This document shows positions 7,288 to 63,626 of a stretch of DNA of 64,000 nt, in pieces (positions within the stretch are counted from its first letter, which is position 1; every line of letters begins with the position of its first letter). The DNA comes from Octopus vulgaris (Eukaryota). The translations under genes were made by a program, and so were the position numbers. Below the pieces are notes generated by a model. It worked only from the letters and a program-made list of their open reading frames with translations. It was not told the origin of the DNA and did no database searches. The stretch is from contig OX597825.1 in the NCBI GenBank assembly GCA_951406725.2, forward strand, positions 15,562,001 to 15,626,000, read 5' to 3'.

Positions 7288-7497
<210 letters not shown>

Positions 7498-7512
7498 GTT
7501 TGTGTGTGTGCG

Positions 7513-7891
7513 TGTGTCAGTATGTTCGGATGGTTGAGTCTGGGTTTGTACTTTTCAATGAAGAATGTTTCCTTGTTCAGTCTCATTTGTGTTGATGATC
7601 CGAAAGCACATTGGTAAAATGGGAAGATTAAAAATTGTGGCAGTAGTTGCTTTGCGCATTTCTCAATGTGCTCACTAAAAGGTATCATTCTATATTCTGG
7701 GAATTCCCAGAATATAGAATGATACCTTTTAGTGAGCACATTGAGAAATGCGCAAAGCAACTACTGCCACAATTTTTAATCTTCCCATTTTACCAATGTG
7801 CTTTCGGATCAACACAAATGAGACTGAACAAGGAAACATTCTTCATTGAAAAGTACAAACCCAGACTCAACCATCCGAACATACTGACACA
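7513..7891. repeat. Near-perfect 379-bp palindrome, no spacer
   Basis: Arms 7513-7703 and 7704-7891 centred on GAATTC; they differ only by a 3-bp indel. Confidence 0.97.
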
Positions 7892-8084
7892 GAGAAATTA
7901 ACAAGGGAAAGGGAAAAACCATCCGAACATACTGACACAGAGAAATGAACAACGGAAAAGGAAAACAAATTTTAAGCGATTATCTCCCTTACACCGGAAG
8001 AAATCACTCACTACCTCCCCTTATTTAGAAATCTCCTGAAAATAAATACAACGATAACTCCATGCAATATAAACATAACGTCAC

Positions 8085-8124
8085 AAGAAATTTGAAAAGC
8101 TACACGCGAAACCGGTAATTTCTT
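8085..8124 (+). ncRNA. Minimal type I hammerhead ribozyme, U3:A8 variant
   Basis: AAGAAAT-[TTGAAAA]-GC tacac GC-[GAAA]-CCGG-TA-ATTTCTT: 7-bp stem I, 2-bp stem II, palindromic ACCGGT stem III, GUA triplet (predicted cut after 8117). Confidence 0.8.
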
Positions 8125-8295
8125 TAAAAATTTTTAAAATTATGTCATTTTAAGGAAAGGAAAAAAATTTTTCCAATATTCTCCAAACATTTTGACACAA
8201 ATATATATATTTTTTAACATTTAAGCCTTCTGTCGTTTTTTCACACTTTACTATTTTCTTATATATTCACCCACGTGCTTTACCAAACAAACTTT

Positions 8296-8375
<80 letters not shown>

Positions 8376-9241
8376 CACATATATATATATATACATATAT
8401 ACACCCTCGTGCCTGCACATACATGACATGTCTACATATAATAGCGTCGTTGCCTGACTGCAAACATTCGACATATATCATACGTGACGCAGAAATTTGG
8501 CTCAGACCGCAAATCGTAGCCACACATCTTTCAAATTTAATAATACATATTATGCTATTTTTCTATAGCGAAAATCTGTTGAAGAATTTTATTCATTTCA
8601 TACCACAAGAGTCACTAGCGTCAGTATACAATGAATTCTAATTCACATCTAGCAAGAACTACTTGTAATGGCGATGTTATTATTGTCCTTCCTCTCTCAA
8701 TGAAAATTTTAGTTGCTGGCCTTTTAAATGACTATTGATTAATTCCACCAGTTGACCAACTGACAAATCGTACAGCAATACGTTCAGAACTGGGGAAATT
8801 ATATCCTATATACCATTATCTTCAGTTCTGTGTCTTTTATATGACTCACACTCAATTGAAATGACATACTATGTTAACTCAAACATGAAGACGCATTTTT
8901 AAATGAGTCTCCCATTGAGAAAGTCATGTGTTTTACATTCGCTCTGATCTTTATTGCTGCATCTCCAATTTTTATTCATTTCCTGTTACTATAAAATACC
9001 AGAAAAAAAAGGAACATATACGTAAATATATATCACGCAAACATACACACACACACGTATATACACACACACTCAAACACTAATATACACACATATGCGT
9101 GTGAATATACACGTACAACATCCATTGGTATTTATGCATATTTATACACACGCATAATGTATGTGCACATATATTTCTCTCTCTCAGTGTCTCTCTCTCT
9201 AAACATATATATATATATACATAGACACACATACATATATA

Positions 9242-16428: not shown

Positions 16429-16634
16429 GGTCCCGGGTTGATTCGGGGTTAACCACAGTAAATAAGGTACTCAATACATAGCAGAGTAAAATTAATTTAT
16501 TATATAGAAGGAGCTTCTACAGGACTAGAACTGTTTCATTCAAGAGAAATCTTCAGGAAGCTCAGGAGCTTCCTGAAGATTTCTCTTGAATGAAACAGTT
16601 CTAGTCCTGTAGAAGCTCCTTCTATATAATAAAT
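16426..16634. mobile_element. Short (TA)n-embedded insert ending in a 69-bp-arm fold-back with hammerhead-like core
   Basis: Arms 16495-16563 and 16566-16634 are perfect reverse complements. Each contains CTGAAGA-TTTC tctt GAAT-GAAA-CAGTT. (TA)n on both sides. Confidence 0.75.
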
Positions 16635-35035: not shown

Positions 35036-35045
35036 GGGATTGGGG

Positions 35046-35394
35046 CACAGGCTGTTCCGTTGATCGGATCAACTGGAACCCTCGTCGTCGTACCCGACGG
35101 AGTGCCACGAATTTATCCTTTTCATGTGCACTCGATATCATATATCATGCTATTATATCATTCCATGCTATTTGATACACCGTTACTTTTCTTCCTTGAA
35201 CAACCTTATCCCACTGACCCTGCGAACAATTCCATCTTAGTGCAGTTTATATATATAAACTTTGCCTTAAATCCTCTTCTTCTCATGGTTGGTAAAATAA
35301 GTACCAGTTTCGCACCTTCGTCGAGGCAATCGACTTGGTGGACTTATACATGAAAATATGTTGTCTATTGACTTCTATTACACATGCTAGCTGC

Positions 35395-35429
<35 letters not shown>

Positions 35430-36329
35430 CAGGATGTACTTCGACACAGTTTCTATCTACCACATTCCCTCAGAATGTGCCTTGATCGTGCCAGAGCTAT
35501 ATTAAAAACACACTTCCCCAAAGTGACGCGTAGTGTGACTGGACCCAAAATTCCGCGGTCCAAAGTGAGCTTCTTAACCACGCTGCAATTCCTGCGATTA
35601 TACATACACACACATGCATACATACATACAGACAGACAGGCAGAGAGACAAGCAAACAGGCGGATAGACAGGCAAATAGACAGACGACCAGACAAAAGCA
35701 ATGGAGGTATACTGTTGACAATCCTCATTAGGGTGAAACTGTGCCGTCCAGTGTTCTAGCTTGGCAAGAGTTATTTTTGCTACCTTCAGTAATTCCAGTG
35801 CCTTTAGCACAGCGGGTCTATCACAGACGCTATGTCGGGATGGATACCGCAGTAACTGTCCTATGAACTGCGTATATACGTGAAGTATGATCAATAGATA
35901 GCAATATAGAAATTGAACTAAGAGAAAGTGCTGACAGTGCCAGTAGGATAGAGTTGTTCAAGAAAGAAAAGTAACGGCGTATCAAATTTAGAAAATTTTG
36001 AGACCTGTGGCTAGCTTGGGTAATAGAAGTCAATAGACAACATATTTTCATGTATAAGTCCACGAAGTCGATTGCCTCGACGGTAGTGCGCAACTGGTAC
36101 TTATTTTACCAACCCTGAGAAGAAGAGGATTTAAGGCAGAATTTATATATATAAATTGCACTAAGATGAAATTGCTCGCAGGGTCAGTGGCATAAGGTTG
36201 TTCAAGAAAGTAAAGTAGCGGTGTATCAAATAGTAGGATACCGACTGCACATGAGAAGGATAAATTCGTGGCACTGCGTAGGTTACAACGACGAGGGTTC
36301 CAGTTGATCGATCAACGGAACAGCCTGTG
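35046..36329. repeat. Diverged inverted duplication, ~330-350 bp
   Basis: 35046-35398 vs reverse complement of 36003-36329; includes a SINE family C tail plus flank. Confidence 0.9.
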
Positions 36330-36718
36330 TCCTGAACGTAGTTGTCAGGGAGATTCAGCGTCACACAGACGCTATGTCGGGATGAATACCGCAGTAACTG
36401 TCCTATGAACTGCGTATATACGTGAAGTATGATCAATAGACAGCCTGTGTCCTGAACGTAGTTGTCAGGGAGATTCAGCGTCACACAGAGTGTCACAAGG
36501 CATACCCTTTGAAATACAGATACAACAGAAACAGGAAGAAAGGGTGAGAGAAGGTTGTGGTGAAAGAGTACAGCAGGGTTCAACCCCACCTGGCGGTGCC
36601 TCGTGGGGCTTTAGGTGTTTTCGCTCAATAAACACTGACAACGTCCGGTCTGGGAATCGAAACTGCGATCCTGCGGCCGCGAGTCTACTGCCCTAATCAG
36701 TGGGCCATAGCGCCTCCA
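36270..36718 (-). mobile_element. tRNA-derived SINE family C, with internal rearrangement
   Basis: Minus strand GGAGGCGCTATGGCCCACTGATTAGGGCAGTAGACTCGCGG...GTTTCGATTCCC tRNA-like head. Head also at 39680-39755; tail also at ~6405-6565 and 35046-35108. Confidence 0.85.
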
Positions 36719-44482: not shown

Positions 44483-44506
44483 TTAGCCTAATAATAATAA
44501 TAATAC

Positions 44507-44593
<87 letters not shown>

Positions 44594-44609
44594 TAATAAT
44601 AATAATAAT

Positions 44610-45999
<1,390 letters not shown>

Positions 46000-55962: not shown

Positions 55963-57570
55963 TAAAGTCCTTTATTGGCCACACAGGGCTGAATACAGAG
56001 GGGACAAATACAAATGTAGAGCTTTTCTTTTCGAAGATGGAAAAAGAAAAAGGAAAAAGAGGAAAGAATTGTAAAATTCCGATCAAAAGAGATCGAAAAA
56101 AAAAAGGCGTTCAAAAGGGATCCTGTATCACAAAAAGAAATTTTTTTAAAAAGTAAGAAACGAGATTAGGTTCATCCGTGGAAAGAAAAGCCTATAGAAA
56201 ATACCACGGTAACCTCAGGCAGGGAGGAAAATAAACACATGAGAGCAAAGTGCTCTCTCTCTGTCTCTTTTACGATTTACAGGAGCATGTTCAAAGTGGT
56301 TTCGTCACTCGCACGCACCATCTTTGCTACATTCACCCACCTTTTTTTGAAACTTTTCCGAGACAAAACCTGCCTCTCCATTCTCACCTTCCTTTTCAAG
56401 TGGTACTTGAAAAAGTTGATGAGCGATTGGCCAGAGAGGTAAGTGTTTGTCTCTAATCCTTTCGCTCGAGTCCACCACACACATACTTTCACCATGGCCA
56501 CCAGTACGATGCAAACTGCCTTGCCTTCCCGGTTAAGGAAAGGGGACGGAGCAATGTTCACGATAGACTCGGCCGACAGGCGGACTCGTCCCACACGTGA
56601 CAGCAGCCGTTCGGCATAAGCCCACAGGTCTGAAATGGTTGGACACTGCACGAGTGCGTGCAGAACGGTTTCGTCGCTCTGACCGCATCTCGGGCAAGTC
56701 GGTCCAGTGTGTCTCGAACCGTGACTGTAGAGCTTATCCCGAACAGGTAATGCTTCTCGATAGCACTGCCAGACCAGGGATCTTTGGTGACTGTCCATAG
56801 GTCCCGGCCCGAAAGTTGTCCTGAACAGGCGGGTCAGGTGTTCCTCGTCGACGCCCAGATTCTGCCCGAGAACGTCGTCGCACGTCCCCTCCACTAATCC
56901 TCTATAGGACACCTTTGTTGTAATGAAGTCGCACAAGCTTCGTCCCGGACGGCAGAGTTGCTTGAGAGCAATGCGACACTCGCGGTGCCGTTCGCTTAGC
57001 CTCGGTCTCTGCTTGATTCACGACTGTAGTTCGGCCAAGGAGACGAGCTGCGGGAAAGCGCGTCGCACAAAAGGCGACCACACCTGTTCACCGTCGTCTA
57101 TGAAGCGCCGGAGATGTCGCAATCTCAGCGCATGTCTGCACATCTCTTTCTTTATTACCCACAGGGGGCTAAACATAGAGAGGACAAACAAGGACAGACA
57201 AACGAATTAAGTCGATTACATCGACCCCGGTGAGTAACTGGTATTTAATTTATCGACCCCGAAAGGATGAAAGCCAAAGTCGACCTCGGCGGAATTTGAA
57301 CTCAGAACCTAACGGCAGACGAAATACGGCTACGCATTTCGCCCGGCGTGCTAACGTTTCTGCCAGCTCGCCGCCTTATCAACCTGCACATCATCAACCA
57401 CGGCATGCCTAGCCCTCCATTTAGCAAGTGTTGACAGCAAATGGATCGCCTAACCATCGGAACACTTCCCTTCCACCTGAAGCGCATGAGTATTGATGTT
57501 CAACAAAGAAGACCTGACGAAGAGGAAGGAAAATCGGCCGCTTTGAGTAGTCTTTCAGTCTTTGGAAGGA
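55961..57570 (-). mobile_element. 5'-truncated Tx1/L1-clade LINE (ORF2 C-terminus with zinc finger), interrupted by a SINE B
   Basis: GGLGMP, LPVRDKL, CPRCGQSDETVLHALVQC motifs; 3' UTR ends at (GATA)n. Confidence 0.88.
57145..57376 (-). mobile_element. SINE family B inserted in the Tx1-like LINE
   Basis: Near-consensus; 9-bp target duplication CTGCACATC at 57136-57144 and 57384-57392. Confidence 0.92.
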
Positions 57571-59188: not shown

Positions 59189-60093
59189 GGCGGTGAGCTG
59201 GTAGAAATGTTAGCACGTCGGGCGAAATGCTTAGCAGTATTTCGTCTGCCGCTACGTTCTGAGTTCAAATTCCGCCGAGGTCGACTTTGCCTTTCATCCT
59301 TCCGGGGTCGATAAATTAAGTACCAGTTACGCACTGGGGTCGATGTAATCGACTTAATCCGTTTGTCTGTCCTTGTTTGTCTCCTCTGTGATTAGCGCCT
59401 TGTGTGTGTTCTGACTTCAAATTCCGCCGAGGTCGACTTTGCCTCTCATCCTTTCGGGGTCGATAAATTATGTACCAGTTACGCACTGGGGTCGAAATAA
59501 TCGACTTAATCCGTTTGTCTGTCCTTGTTTGTCTCCTCTGTGTTTAGCGCCTTGTGGGTGTTCTGAGTTCAAATTCCGCCGAGGTCGACTTTGCCTTTCA
59601 TCCTTTCGGGTTCGATAAGAGAAGTACCAGTTACGCACTGGGGTCGATGTAATCGACTTAATCCGTTTGTCTGTCCTTCTTTGTCCTCTCTGTGTTTAGC
59701 CCCTTGTGGGTAGTAAAGAAATAGGTATTTCGTCTGCCGCTACGTTCTGAGTTCAAATTCTGCCGAGGTCGACTTTGCCTTTCATCCTTTCGGGGTCGAT
59801 TAGATAAGTACCAGTTACGCACTGGAGTCGATGTAATCAACTTAATCCGTTTGTCTGTCCTTGTTTTTCCCCTCTGTGTCTAGCCCCTTGTGGGTAGTAA
59901 AGAAATAGGTATTTTATCTGTCTTTACGTTCTCGGTTCAAATACCTCCGAGGTCGACTTTGCCTTTCATCCTTTCGGGGTCGATTAAATAAGTACCAGTT
60001 ACGCACTGGGGTCGATGTAATCGACTTAATCCGTTTGTCTGTCCTTGATTGTCCACTCTATGTTTAGCCCCTTGTTGACAATAAAGAAATAAG
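59189..60093 (+). repeat. Head-to-tail array of five SINE family B units
   Basis: Units start ~59189, 59408, 59560, 59724 and 59908; only the first has the full 5' head. Confidence 0.92.
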
Positions 60094-63504: not shown

Positions 63505-63626
63505 TGACTGTTGTGTCTGGGGTGAGTCATTCTCTTTTAGTGCTTTATAATTTAACACAGTCGCCGGTGAGTGTGTCAAATTATAAGGCACTAAAAAATA
63601 ATGACTCACCCCAGACACAACAGTCA
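63505..63626. repeat. 122-bp imperfect palindrome, no spacer
   Basis: 61-bp arms centred on CC|GG at 63565/63566, a few mismatches. Confidence 0.92.

What the first reader, a model, noticed from the sequence alone, without database searches (positions are those of the whole stretch)
8085..8124. Complete 40-nt hammerhead with compensatory U3:A8 core and palindromic stem III
The core reads UUGAAAA rather than CUGANGA. Both members of the C3-G8 tertiary pair changed together to U-A, which is what selection on catalysis predicts. Stem I is a perfect 7 bp. ACCGGT can only form a stable stem III as a dimer, as described for PLE hammerheads.
Basis: partly seen in the sequence, partly recalled or inferred. 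Interest (0 to 1): 0.72.

Follow-up and report, generated by a model that had tools for sequence, protein, structure and literature searches.

The report
Penelope retrotransposon minimal hammerhead, U3:A8 core
This 40-base motif is a tiny self-cutting RNA of a kind already known from Penelope-like jumping genes, sitting in the tail of one such truncated element; its odd U-A core pair is in print, and its one unusual trait is that the same U can also pair with the base at the cut site, which may slow it down.

Summary
The motif is there as described: 7-bp stem I, UUGAAAA core, GAAA, palindromic ACCGGU, predicted cut after 8117. Stem II has only 2 bp. It lies 194 nt behind the C-terminus of a GIY-YIG endonuclease (98% identical to P0001, whose relatives are RT+GIY-YIG Penelope-like proteins), in a 5'-truncated copy with an inverted head, between microsatellites. 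A model built only from 11 C3:G8 motifs of related elements ranks it first in the window (E 0.00018). Positions 3 and 8, left free in the scan, are Watson-Crick in 39 of 40 motifs in 97 related loci. U3, A8 and A17 are unchanged in at least 97% of laid depth in 2 of 3 DNA-like runs. U3-A8 is already published for Schistosoma Penelope-like elements, and this scan found such motifs before on other DNA. Cleavage is untested; this copy has no second hammerhead in cis. One twist: U3 can pair with A17 (predicted probability about 0.7), the analogue of the known inactive C3-G17 trap, seen in 0 of 41 related motifs. Verdict: new member of a known kind; interest 0.3.

The parts
8085..8124 (+). Type I minimal hammerhead motif, U3:A8 core, GUA cleavage triplet
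8085..8091 (+). Stem I, 5' strand (pairs with 8118-8124)
   Evidence: all 7 stem I columns show changes on both sides among 13 motifs
8092..8098 (+). Core U3 U4 G5 A6 A7 A8 A9; U3 (8092) pairs with A8 (8097) in the active fold, or with A17 (8117) in a trapped fold
8099..8107 (+). Stem II: G10.1-C11.1, C10.2-G11.2 and a 5-nt loop
   Evidence: a 1-nt loop deletion at 8103 in about 1% of depth in runs X2 and X4
8108..8117 (+). G12 A13 A14, palindrome A15.1-CCGG-U16.1 (8111-8116), A17 (8117); predicted cut between 8117 and 8118
   Evidence: hammerhead numbering from PMC4209133; cut site inferred, not shown
8118..8124 (+). Stem I, 3' strand
7704..7901 (+). Last 65 codons and stop of a Penelope-like RT-GIY-YIG ORF (5'-truncated)
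   Evidence: 98% identical to P0001 residues 261-326; profile of 45 relatives hits at E 9e-19
7513..7703 (-). Inverted 5'-truncated copy of the ORF end, head to head with 7704-7891; it ends before the stop codon and holds no hammerhead
   Evidence: 188 of 188 paired bases match, plus a 3-nt indel
7869..7964 (+). 48-nt tandem duplication of the ORF end, rare in the family
   Evidence: depth at 7924-7963 is 100-fold or more below the flanks in X1, with joints that skip it
7902..8266 (+). 3' untranslated part / pseudo-LTR that holds the hammerhead; many family copies end at 8266 in TA repeats
   Evidence: depth and loose ends at 8266; pLTR label inferred from duplicated motifs in L001, L013, L031, L037, L048
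8267..8297 (+). 31-nt extension before the (TA)n tract, probably the optional 30-40-bp PLE 'tail'
   Evidence: size matches the tail described in PMC8557442; inference
7288..7517 (.). (TA)n(TG)n microsatellite at the left end (insertion target)
8298..8401 (.). (TA)n microsatellite at the right end (insertion target)

Best explanation
It is the type I minimal hammerhead of the 3' pseudo-LTR of a high-copy, endonuclease-bearing Penelope-like retrotransposon (Neptune-like), here in a 5'-truncated copy. Shown: the motif, its place behind the ORF, covariation of 3:8, stem I and the palindrome in related elements, and near-fixation of U3, A8 and A17 in the family. Inferred mechanism: one copy cannot close stem III; two copies (the 5' and 3' pLTR of one tandem transcript, or two transcripts) swap stem I strands and pair ACCGGU with ACCGGU into a double hammerhead. 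U3 then pairs with A8, G12 acts as base and the 2'-OH of position 8 as acid, and the RNA is cut 3' of A17 (8117), leaving a 2',3'-cyclic phosphate. This would trim element RNA out of longer transcripts. Cleavage is probably slow and helped by the element's own protein. This particular copy has no partner in cis, so it would cut only in trans.
For: Context: ORF end 98% identical to P0001; 89 longer relatives, RT (Pfam RVT_1 above cut-off in P0002 and P0003) plus C-terminal GIY-YIG; inverted head and TA target as described for PLEs. Homologous position: of 15 loci with 38% identity or more (to P0003 or P0001) and the ORF end on the contig, 12 carry a core with Watson-Crick 3:8 and a 6-nt palindrome 84-445 nt behind the ORF (11 C:G, 1 U:A; ACCGGT in 5); 1 is degenerate, 2 have none. 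L001 and L011 have the same build (2-bp stem II, ACCGGT, 8-10-bp stem I) with C3:G8. 3:8 free in the scan: 39 of 40 distinct motifs Watson-Crick (31 C:G, 5 U:A, 2 A:U, 1 G:C) against 1 of 5 in shuffles. Covariation score 0.755 against 0.229 in shuffles and at most 0.176 in slid controls. Model search E 0.00018. Double-hammerhead fold -14.1 kcal/mol against -2.3 for the open monomer. U3-A8 active in vitro according to PMC3088659; dimers cleave, weakly, and monomers not, in PMC4209133; protein-assisted cleavage in PMC11167929.
Against: No cleavage data. Stem I pairs with probability only 0.03-0.19 in four longer contexts. U3-A17 is predicted at 0.73 (monomer) and 0.71 (dimer). In one type III hammerhead only the C-G to G-C swap rescued activity; other double mutants in that region were low (PMC9901934). 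The lack of listed variants inside the 40 nt is not significant (P 0.10-0.12 per run), and 2-3 hidden rows per run may lie in it. In the anole element, hammerhead mutants did not affect insertion in vitro and no reads ended at the cut site. Rows were picked for a palindrome, so that helix is partly circular. Pfam GIY-YIG stays below its cut-off (16-20 bits against 22.6).
Confidence: 0.8

Rival explanations
1. Braked ribozyme (a refinement of the best explanation): U3 pairs with A17, extends stem I to 8 bp and covers the cut site, as C3-G17 does; the family keeps this because uncut RNA is the better template, and dimer formation or the element's protein releases the brake only at times.
For: The minimum-energy monomer and dimer both hold U3-A17; probability 0.71-0.73, against 0 with C or U at 17 and 0.79-0.99 for the known C3-G17 trap. 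N3 is Watson-Crick complementary to N17 in 0 of 41 related motifs and in 0 of 3 U3 rows in the published alignment. A17 with U3 and A8 is near-fixed in X1 and X4. The C3-G17 trap is described in PMC3884650.
Against: A17 is rare anyway (3 of 31 C:G motifs), so 0 of 6 among U:A motifs is not significant (Fisher P 1.0). Secondary-structure models leave out the tertiary core. A U-A end pair is weaker than C-G. A weak ribozyme need not be a selected brake.
Confidence: 0.25
2. The fold is kept for protein binding or template recognition in retrotransposition, and this family no longer cleaves at a rate that matters.
For: Hammerhead cleavage was dispensable for insertion in vitro in the anole element; Naiad PLEs spread without canonical hammerheads; 2-bp stem II and U3-A17 predict low activity; L004 has a degenerate motif and L016 none that fits.
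Against: Watson-Crick 3:8 in 39 of 40 motifs and invariant U4 G5 A6, A9, G12 A13 A14, A15.1 and U16.1 (partly by selection of rows) are what the active site needs.
Confidence: 0.12
3. It cleaves as a monomer, with A15.1-U16.1 alone or a 2-bp stem III held by the 7-bp stem I.
For: Stem I is long for this class (7 bp); weak stems III are common in natural hammerheads (PMC3088659).
Against: Closing A15.1-U16.1 costs 5.4 kcal/mol; the palindrome covaries as a palindrome in relatives; a Schistosoma monomer showed no cleavage.
Confidence: 0.05
4. Chance look-alike in AT-rich DNA.
For: z-score -0.37; 1 equal hit in 200 shuffles; no Rfam hit.
Against: It sits where homologous elements have their hammerhead, shares ACCGGT with 5 of them and is the top hit of a model trained without it; Rfam misses the relatives too.
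Confidence: 0.02

Closest known systems
Minimal hammerheads (min-HHR) of metazoan Penelope-like elements, incl. the U3-A8 variant of Schistosoma mansoni Cercyon elements (Cervera and De la Pena 2014, PMC4209133)
   Same: Type I, in the pLTR behind an RT-GIY-YIG ORF, palindromic helix III, G10.1-C11.1, U3-A8 core (about 1,300 hits in S. mansoni; one row reads UUGAAAAA), mostly single motifs in truncated copies.
   Different: Here stem II is 2 bp (published families mostly 4-8), stem I 7 bp (mostly 3-5), no extra base between 9 and 10.1, a 6-nt palindrome, and A17 beside U3 (published U3 rows have G, U, U).
Small PLE hammerhead variants that cleave as dimers (Lunse, Weinberg and Breaker 2017, PMC5785218)
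   Same: By title and by the review PMC6765202: small, PLE-linked, short palindromic stem III, dimeric cleavage.
   Different: Paper not held, so whether U3:A8 with A17 or 2-bp stem II forms were tested there is unknown to me.
Natural U3-A8 core covariants (Perreault et al. 2011, PMC3088659)
   Same: C3-G8 covaries to U3-A8 in several natural hammerheads; such pairs are active in vitro; stem II of 2 bp is frequent.
   Different: The section read does not concern Penelope-like elements or the base at 17.
PAc hammerhead of the Anolis Poseidon element (PMC11167929)
   Same: pLTR hammerhead with a 3:8 pair shown by mutation and rescue; cleavage needs the element's protein.
   Different: C3:G8; it overlaps the start codon, whereas 8085-8124 holds no ATG; other PLE clade.
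G17 hammerheads trapped by C3-G17 (Kalweit and Hammann 2013, PMC3884650)
   Same: Base 3 can pair with base 17 and cover the cut site; the effect is strong in minimal forms.
   Different: Here the pair would be U3-A17 and is the main natural state of a mobile family; untested.
Neptune/Nematis-type EN+ PLEs (as described in PMC8557442)
   Same: C-terminal GIY-YIG, CX2-5CxxC linker (P0001 residues 189-197), microsatellite target, inverted 5'-truncated head, tail.
   Different: Clade not placed against named reference elements.

Membership tests
Hammerhead ribozyme (type I) | Core N3 U4 G5 A6 N7 N8 A9, G12 A13 A14, A15.1-U16.1, H17 in the right order | tested here: met
Hammerhead ribozyme (type I) | Watson-Crick pair between 3 and 8 | tested here: met
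   U8092 and A8097; 39 of 40 related motifs Watson-Crick with these positions left free; 13 of 13
Hammerhead ribozyme (type I) | Three helices, open end in stem I, supported by covariation | tested here: met
   12 of 13 pairs change on both sides; score 0.755 against 0.229 shuffled; stem II only 2 bp here
Hammerhead ribozyme (type I) | Match to an Rfam hammerhead model | tested here: inconclusive
   No hit, but also none in 8 of 8 related loci that carry clear motifs
Hammerhead ribozyme (type I) | Self-cleavage 3' of N17 | not testable with these tools
   Only contigs were available; they show no RNA ends (table 6 empty)
Canonical, tertiary-stabilised hammerhead | 4-bp stem II with loop II contacting a bulge in stem I | tested here: not met
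   2-bp stem II, unbroken 7-bp stem I; not filed under this class
PLE minimal hammerhead | Short palindromic helix III that pairs only between two copies | tested here: met
   ACCGGU; monomer closure +5.4 kcal/mol, dimer probability about 1.0; model only
PLE minimal hammerhead | Located in the pLTR of a PLE, sense to the ORF | tested here: met
   194 nt behind the ORF end on the same strand; duplicated at both ends in L001, L013, L031, L037, L048
EN+ Penelope-like element | One ORF with RT and C-terminal GIY-YIG | tested here: met
   For the family: P0001 (98%) and P0002 (75% to P0001, RVT_1 above cut-off, GIY-YIG E 0.0006 below cut-off); this copy keeps only the last 65 codons
EN+ Penelope-like element | 5' truncation with inverted head, optional tail | tested here: met
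   7513-7703 / 7704-7891; 31-nt extension, tail label inferred
Neptune clade | CX2-5CxxC linker before the endonuclease and microsatellite target | tested here: met
   P0001 residues 189-197; 87 of 90 proteins; TA/TG flanks. Nematis shares the linker
Neptune clade | Placement with named Neptune RTs in a tree | not tested
   No named reference elements were in the tree
Non-LTR retrozyme | Short non-coding tandem repeats, each with a type I hammerhead | tested here: not met
   Single motif, no second copy in the window, attached to an ORF remnant

The most novel reading that the evidence does not exclude
A very successful Penelope-like family has fixed a self-inhibiting hammerhead: the swap from C3:G8 to U3:A8 beside A17 lets base 3 choose between the catalytic partner (A8) and the cut-site base (A17), a built-in switch that the element's protein or dimer partner flips. 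It would give a two-base test of whether PLE hammerheads are tuned to cut slowly.
Probability: 0.2. Interest if true: 0.55.

Novelty: new member of a known kind. Interest (0 to 1): 0.3.

Why it matters
Hammerheads in Penelope-like elements and the U3-A8 swap are published, so the finding adds one more family, probably from an octopod mollusc (inferred from named relatives). What these ribozymes do for their elements is still open: published ones cut poorly, need the element's protein, and were dispensable for insertion in vitro. This family offers a cheap handle on that question, because a single change at position 17 or a swap back to C3:G8 should remove the predicted U3-A17 trap; a large gain in rate would mean that a family with thousands of copies has kept a slower ribozyme than it could have.

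Tried and rejected
No whole genome is held, so copies could not be aligned one by one. Rfam: nothing at gathering score in the window and two irrelevant weak matches around the motif; uninformative, since 8 related loci also give nothing. The 65-residue ORF remnant alone gives no useful Pfam hit; it had to be placed through P0001. The viral scan with the U3:A8 core and ACCGGT gave chance matches only and served as a control. blastn of the three motif regions against the 97 related loci gave no hit at E 0.001, so relatedness rests on protein and on the RNA model. The descriptor called 8085-8124 the only hit in the window; that was too strict, since it missed motifs with U10.1-U11.1. No RNA holder is on record among the 24 runs listed; X9 is RNA by guess only and contigs show no RNA ends, so expression and cleavage in cells are not addressed. 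Conservation of the 40 nt within the family over its flanks: not significant. The tree does not resolve whether the U3:A8 of this family and of L085 share one origin. Retrozyme and canonical hammerhead were considered and rejected (see membership test). Papers not held: PMC5785218 and a 2007 RNA paper on 3:8 exchanges, known to me only from recall; both may already cover U3 with A17. Searches that found no paper on U3-A17 or on this motif in octopus. Supplement file 1 of PMC4209133 was not searched and part 3 of file 2 not read; bioRxiv supplements were not seen.

Full report
Observation. Window 8085-8124 parses as AAGAAAT | TTGAAAA | GC TACAC GC | GAA | ACCGGT | A | ATTTCTT: a 7-bp stem I, core U3 U4 G5 A6 A7 A8 A9, a 2-bp stem II, G12 A13 A14, a 6-nt palindrome from A15.1 to U16.1, and A17 at 8117. 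In 200 dinucleotide block shuffles the descriptor gave 9 loose hits, 1 with stem I of 7 bp or more plus a palindrome, and 0 with a 6-nt palindrome; a looser descriptor gave 1 equal hit in 200 doublet shuffles. Folding energy alone is ordinary (z -0.37). Rfam finds no hammerhead, but it finds none in 8 of 8 related loci with clear motifs either. Of 116 viral loci that match the core letters and ACCGGT, none has stem I of 4 or more with stem II of 2 or more.

Context. The DNA is microsatellite-rich and eukaryotic; no whole genome is held. 7704-7898 encodes 65 residues that are 98% identical to the end of P0001. P0001 has a CX2-5CxxC linker and a GIY-YIG-like motif (Pfam GIY-YIG E 0.014, below cut-off). 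Its 89 longer relatives are proteins of 577-1099 residues, most with RT and many with GIY-YIG annotations (RVT_1 above cut-off in P0002 and P0003); a profile of 45 of these proteins hits the window only at this place (E 9e-19). The named relatives are mostly from molluscs, among them Argonauta and Octopus, so the host is probably an octopod; this is inference. 7513-7703 is an inverted copy of 7704-7891, the unit lies between (TA)n(TG)n and (TA)n, and a 31-nt extension precedes the right tract. PMC8557442 (passages) describes 5' truncation, an inverted head, a 30-40-bp tail and microsatellite targets for such elements. The inverted arm stops before the stop codon, so this copy has one hammerhead only.

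The family. 20 of 24 listed runs, from 4 organism labels, hold half or more of the words of 7700-8290. I laid 4 of them (X1, X2, X4, X9), all contigs. Summed depth over the motif is 4-6 x 10^5 in X1 and X4, while the low-depth contigs listed have 40-60; the tool warns that this is no copy number, but thousands of copies are likely. None of the 40 listed substitutions falls in 8065-8124; 34 rows were hidden. Comparing listed rows with the per-run totals leaves only C>T and G>A rows hidden in X1 and only C>T in X4, so U3, A8 and A17 are unchanged in at least 97% of laid depth there; X2 has one A>G, one A>T and one C>T unplaced, and no T>C. The gap in variants is not significant for 40 nt (P 0.10-0.12). 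Contigs drop rare variants and need 80% likeness. Loose ends show sister subfamilies, one with G8 (base 3 not visible) and one with C17.

Covariation in related elements. Two scans with the protein alignment gave 97 loci (the first kept 80 of 376). With positions 3 and 8 left free, 40 distinct motifs were found, on the ORF strand in 37 of 97 loci; 39 are Watson-Crick at 3:8 (31 C:G, 5 U:A, 2 A:U, 1 G:C) and 1 is U:U; 20 shuffles of all loci gave 5 hits, 1 Watson-Crick. Of 20 loci with the ORF end on the contig, 15 are close (38% or more to P0003 or P0001); 12 of them have a core and 6-nt palindrome 84-445 nt behind the ORF (11 C:G, 1 U:A), 1 a degenerate one, 2 none; of the 5 distant ones 1 has a weak motif. 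L001 and L011 have the same build as the window, with C3:G8. On 13 aligned motifs (these 12 and the window), 12 of 13 pairs change on both sides, score 0.755 against 0.229 for shuffles and at most 0.176 for slid partners; the rows were chosen for a palindrome, so that helix is partly circular. A model from the 11 C:G motifs ranks 8082-8127 first of 12 matches, rough E 0.00018. In a tree of 29 proteins the 3 U:A rows never form one group in 200 bootstrap trees and C:G surrounds them, so U:A is probably derived; the five nearest proteins have no DNA here, and a shared origin with L085 is not excluded.

How it most likely works. Shown in models only: closing A15.1-U16.1 in a monomer costs 5.4 kcal/mol, while two copies form a double hammerhead at -14.1 kcal/mol with the ACCGGU duplex at probability about 1.0. 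Inferred from the literature: such dimers cut weakly and monomers not at all (PMC4209133, parts 1-2 of 4 of the text); G12 acts as base and the 2'-OH of position 8 as acid (PMC6155905, passages); the anole element's hammerhead cuts only with the element's protein, and cutting was not needed for insertion in vitro (PMC11167929, passages). I therefore expect slow, dimer- and protein-dependent cleavage after 8117 that trims element RNA; confidence 0.8. Against: stem I pairs with probability 0.03-0.19 in longer contexts, and in one type III hammerhead only the G:C swap rescued 3:8 (PMC9901934, passages), whereas PMC3088659 (section 8) calls U3-A8 active in vitro.

U3 can pair with A17. The lowest-energy monomer and dimer both contain this pair, at probability 0.73 and 0.71; it is 0 with C or U at 17, and 0.79 and 0.99 for C3 with G17, the trapped form described in PMC3884650 (part 1 of 5 and passages). 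Base 3 is complementary to base 17 in 0 of 41 related motifs and in 0 of the 3 U3 rows of the published alignment (supplement file 2, parts 1-2 of 3). But A17 is rare overall (3 of 31 C:G motifs), so 0 of 6 among U:A motifs proves nothing, and these models omit the tertiary core. It is a testable lead, not a result.

Comparison with what is known. PMC4209133 reports minimal hammerheads in PLE repeats, with palindromic helix III, and a U3-A8 variant with about 1,300 hits in S. mansoni; PMC3088659 reports natural U3-A8 and frequent 2-bp stems II. The dimer paper PMC5785218 is not held; I saw its title and a review's account (PMC6765202, passages). Searches showed no paper on U3-A17 or on this motif in octopus; PMC13282606 (passages) counts Penelope families in Octopus vulgaris without the word ribozyme; the retrozyme preprint 10.64898/2026.07.22.740005 was read in part 1 of 5. 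Two earlier notes of this scan describe U3-A8 PLE hammerheads in other genomes; I did not test them and they did not change my reading. It works like, and passes the sequence tests for, a PLE minimal type I hammerhead; it is neither a canonical tertiary-stabilised hammerhead nor a retrozyme.

Verdict. Observation confirmed, interpretation supported, catalysis untested. New member of a known kind; interest 0.3. Most novel reading: a fixed U3-A17 brake, probability 0.2, interest 0.55 if true.

Noticed in passing
window 16564-16620 (+) and 16511-16563 (-): A second hammerhead-like motif, C3:G8, U10.1-U11.1, 3-bp stem II, 3-bp stem III with an 8-nt loop, 9- and 7-bp stem I, mirrored in a 140-bp palindrome (16495-16634) whose centre lies at the 5' edge of stem I, between TA tracts, with about 70 extra bases on one arm. 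Probably the end of another PLE family, truncated right at the ribozyme (model E 0.0075 and 0.017).
   Followed up: partly
window 35705-35758 (+): A third candidate with U3:A8 and C17, 6-bp stem I, U10.1-U11.1 (model E 0.016); single copy, no PLE ORF beside it, and its lowest-energy fold is not a hammerhead. It lies between arms of an 85% inverted repeat (35043-35398 / 36003-36332).
   Followed up: partly
run X9 laid on window 7704-8290: 36 of 59 variable places are A>G or T>C, against 5 of 33 in X1 (Fisher P 2e-5). It would fit A-to-I editing of family RNA from both strands, but X9 is RNA by guess only, has low depth and no matched DNA.
   Followed up: no
window 7807 and 7594-7596: The two arms of the inverted head differ by a 3-nt ATC indel that is also polymorphic in the family (10-34% of depth in X1, X2, X4 carry the longer form); either slippage or two different template RNAs in one insertion.
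   Followed up: no
L009:1858-1897: A PLE hammerhead motif with only 3 nt between A9 and G12, so no stem II at all, yet a 6-bp stem I and a 6-nt palindrome.
   Followed up: no
L058:2391, L072:1964, L033:113: Motifs with A3:U8 (two) and G3:C8 (one) in PLE-related loci, so all four Watson-Crick forms of 3:8 occur.
   Followed up: no
L002, L003, L005, L007, L082 (3' flanks): U10.1-U11.1 replaces the usual G-C at the base of stem II in 5 of 12 close relatives.
   Followed up: no
L081-L097: PLE-related ORFs, which look eukaryotic, occur in bacterial genome bins, most on short contigs; probably host DNA binned by mistake.
   Followed up: no
window 59256-60091 and dispersed copies (22367, 25694, 47719, 57308 and others): A unit of about 150 nt in five tandem copies and at least four further full-length dispersed copies, 91-95% alike; SINE-like; no tRNA gene found.
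   Followed up: no
window 56280-57017 (-) and 44487-45518 (+): Frames with a zf-RVT domain, probably 3' ends of LINEs.
   Followed up: no
window 63505-63626: A 122-bp palindrome, 90% complementary, without a hammerhead core.
   Followed up: no
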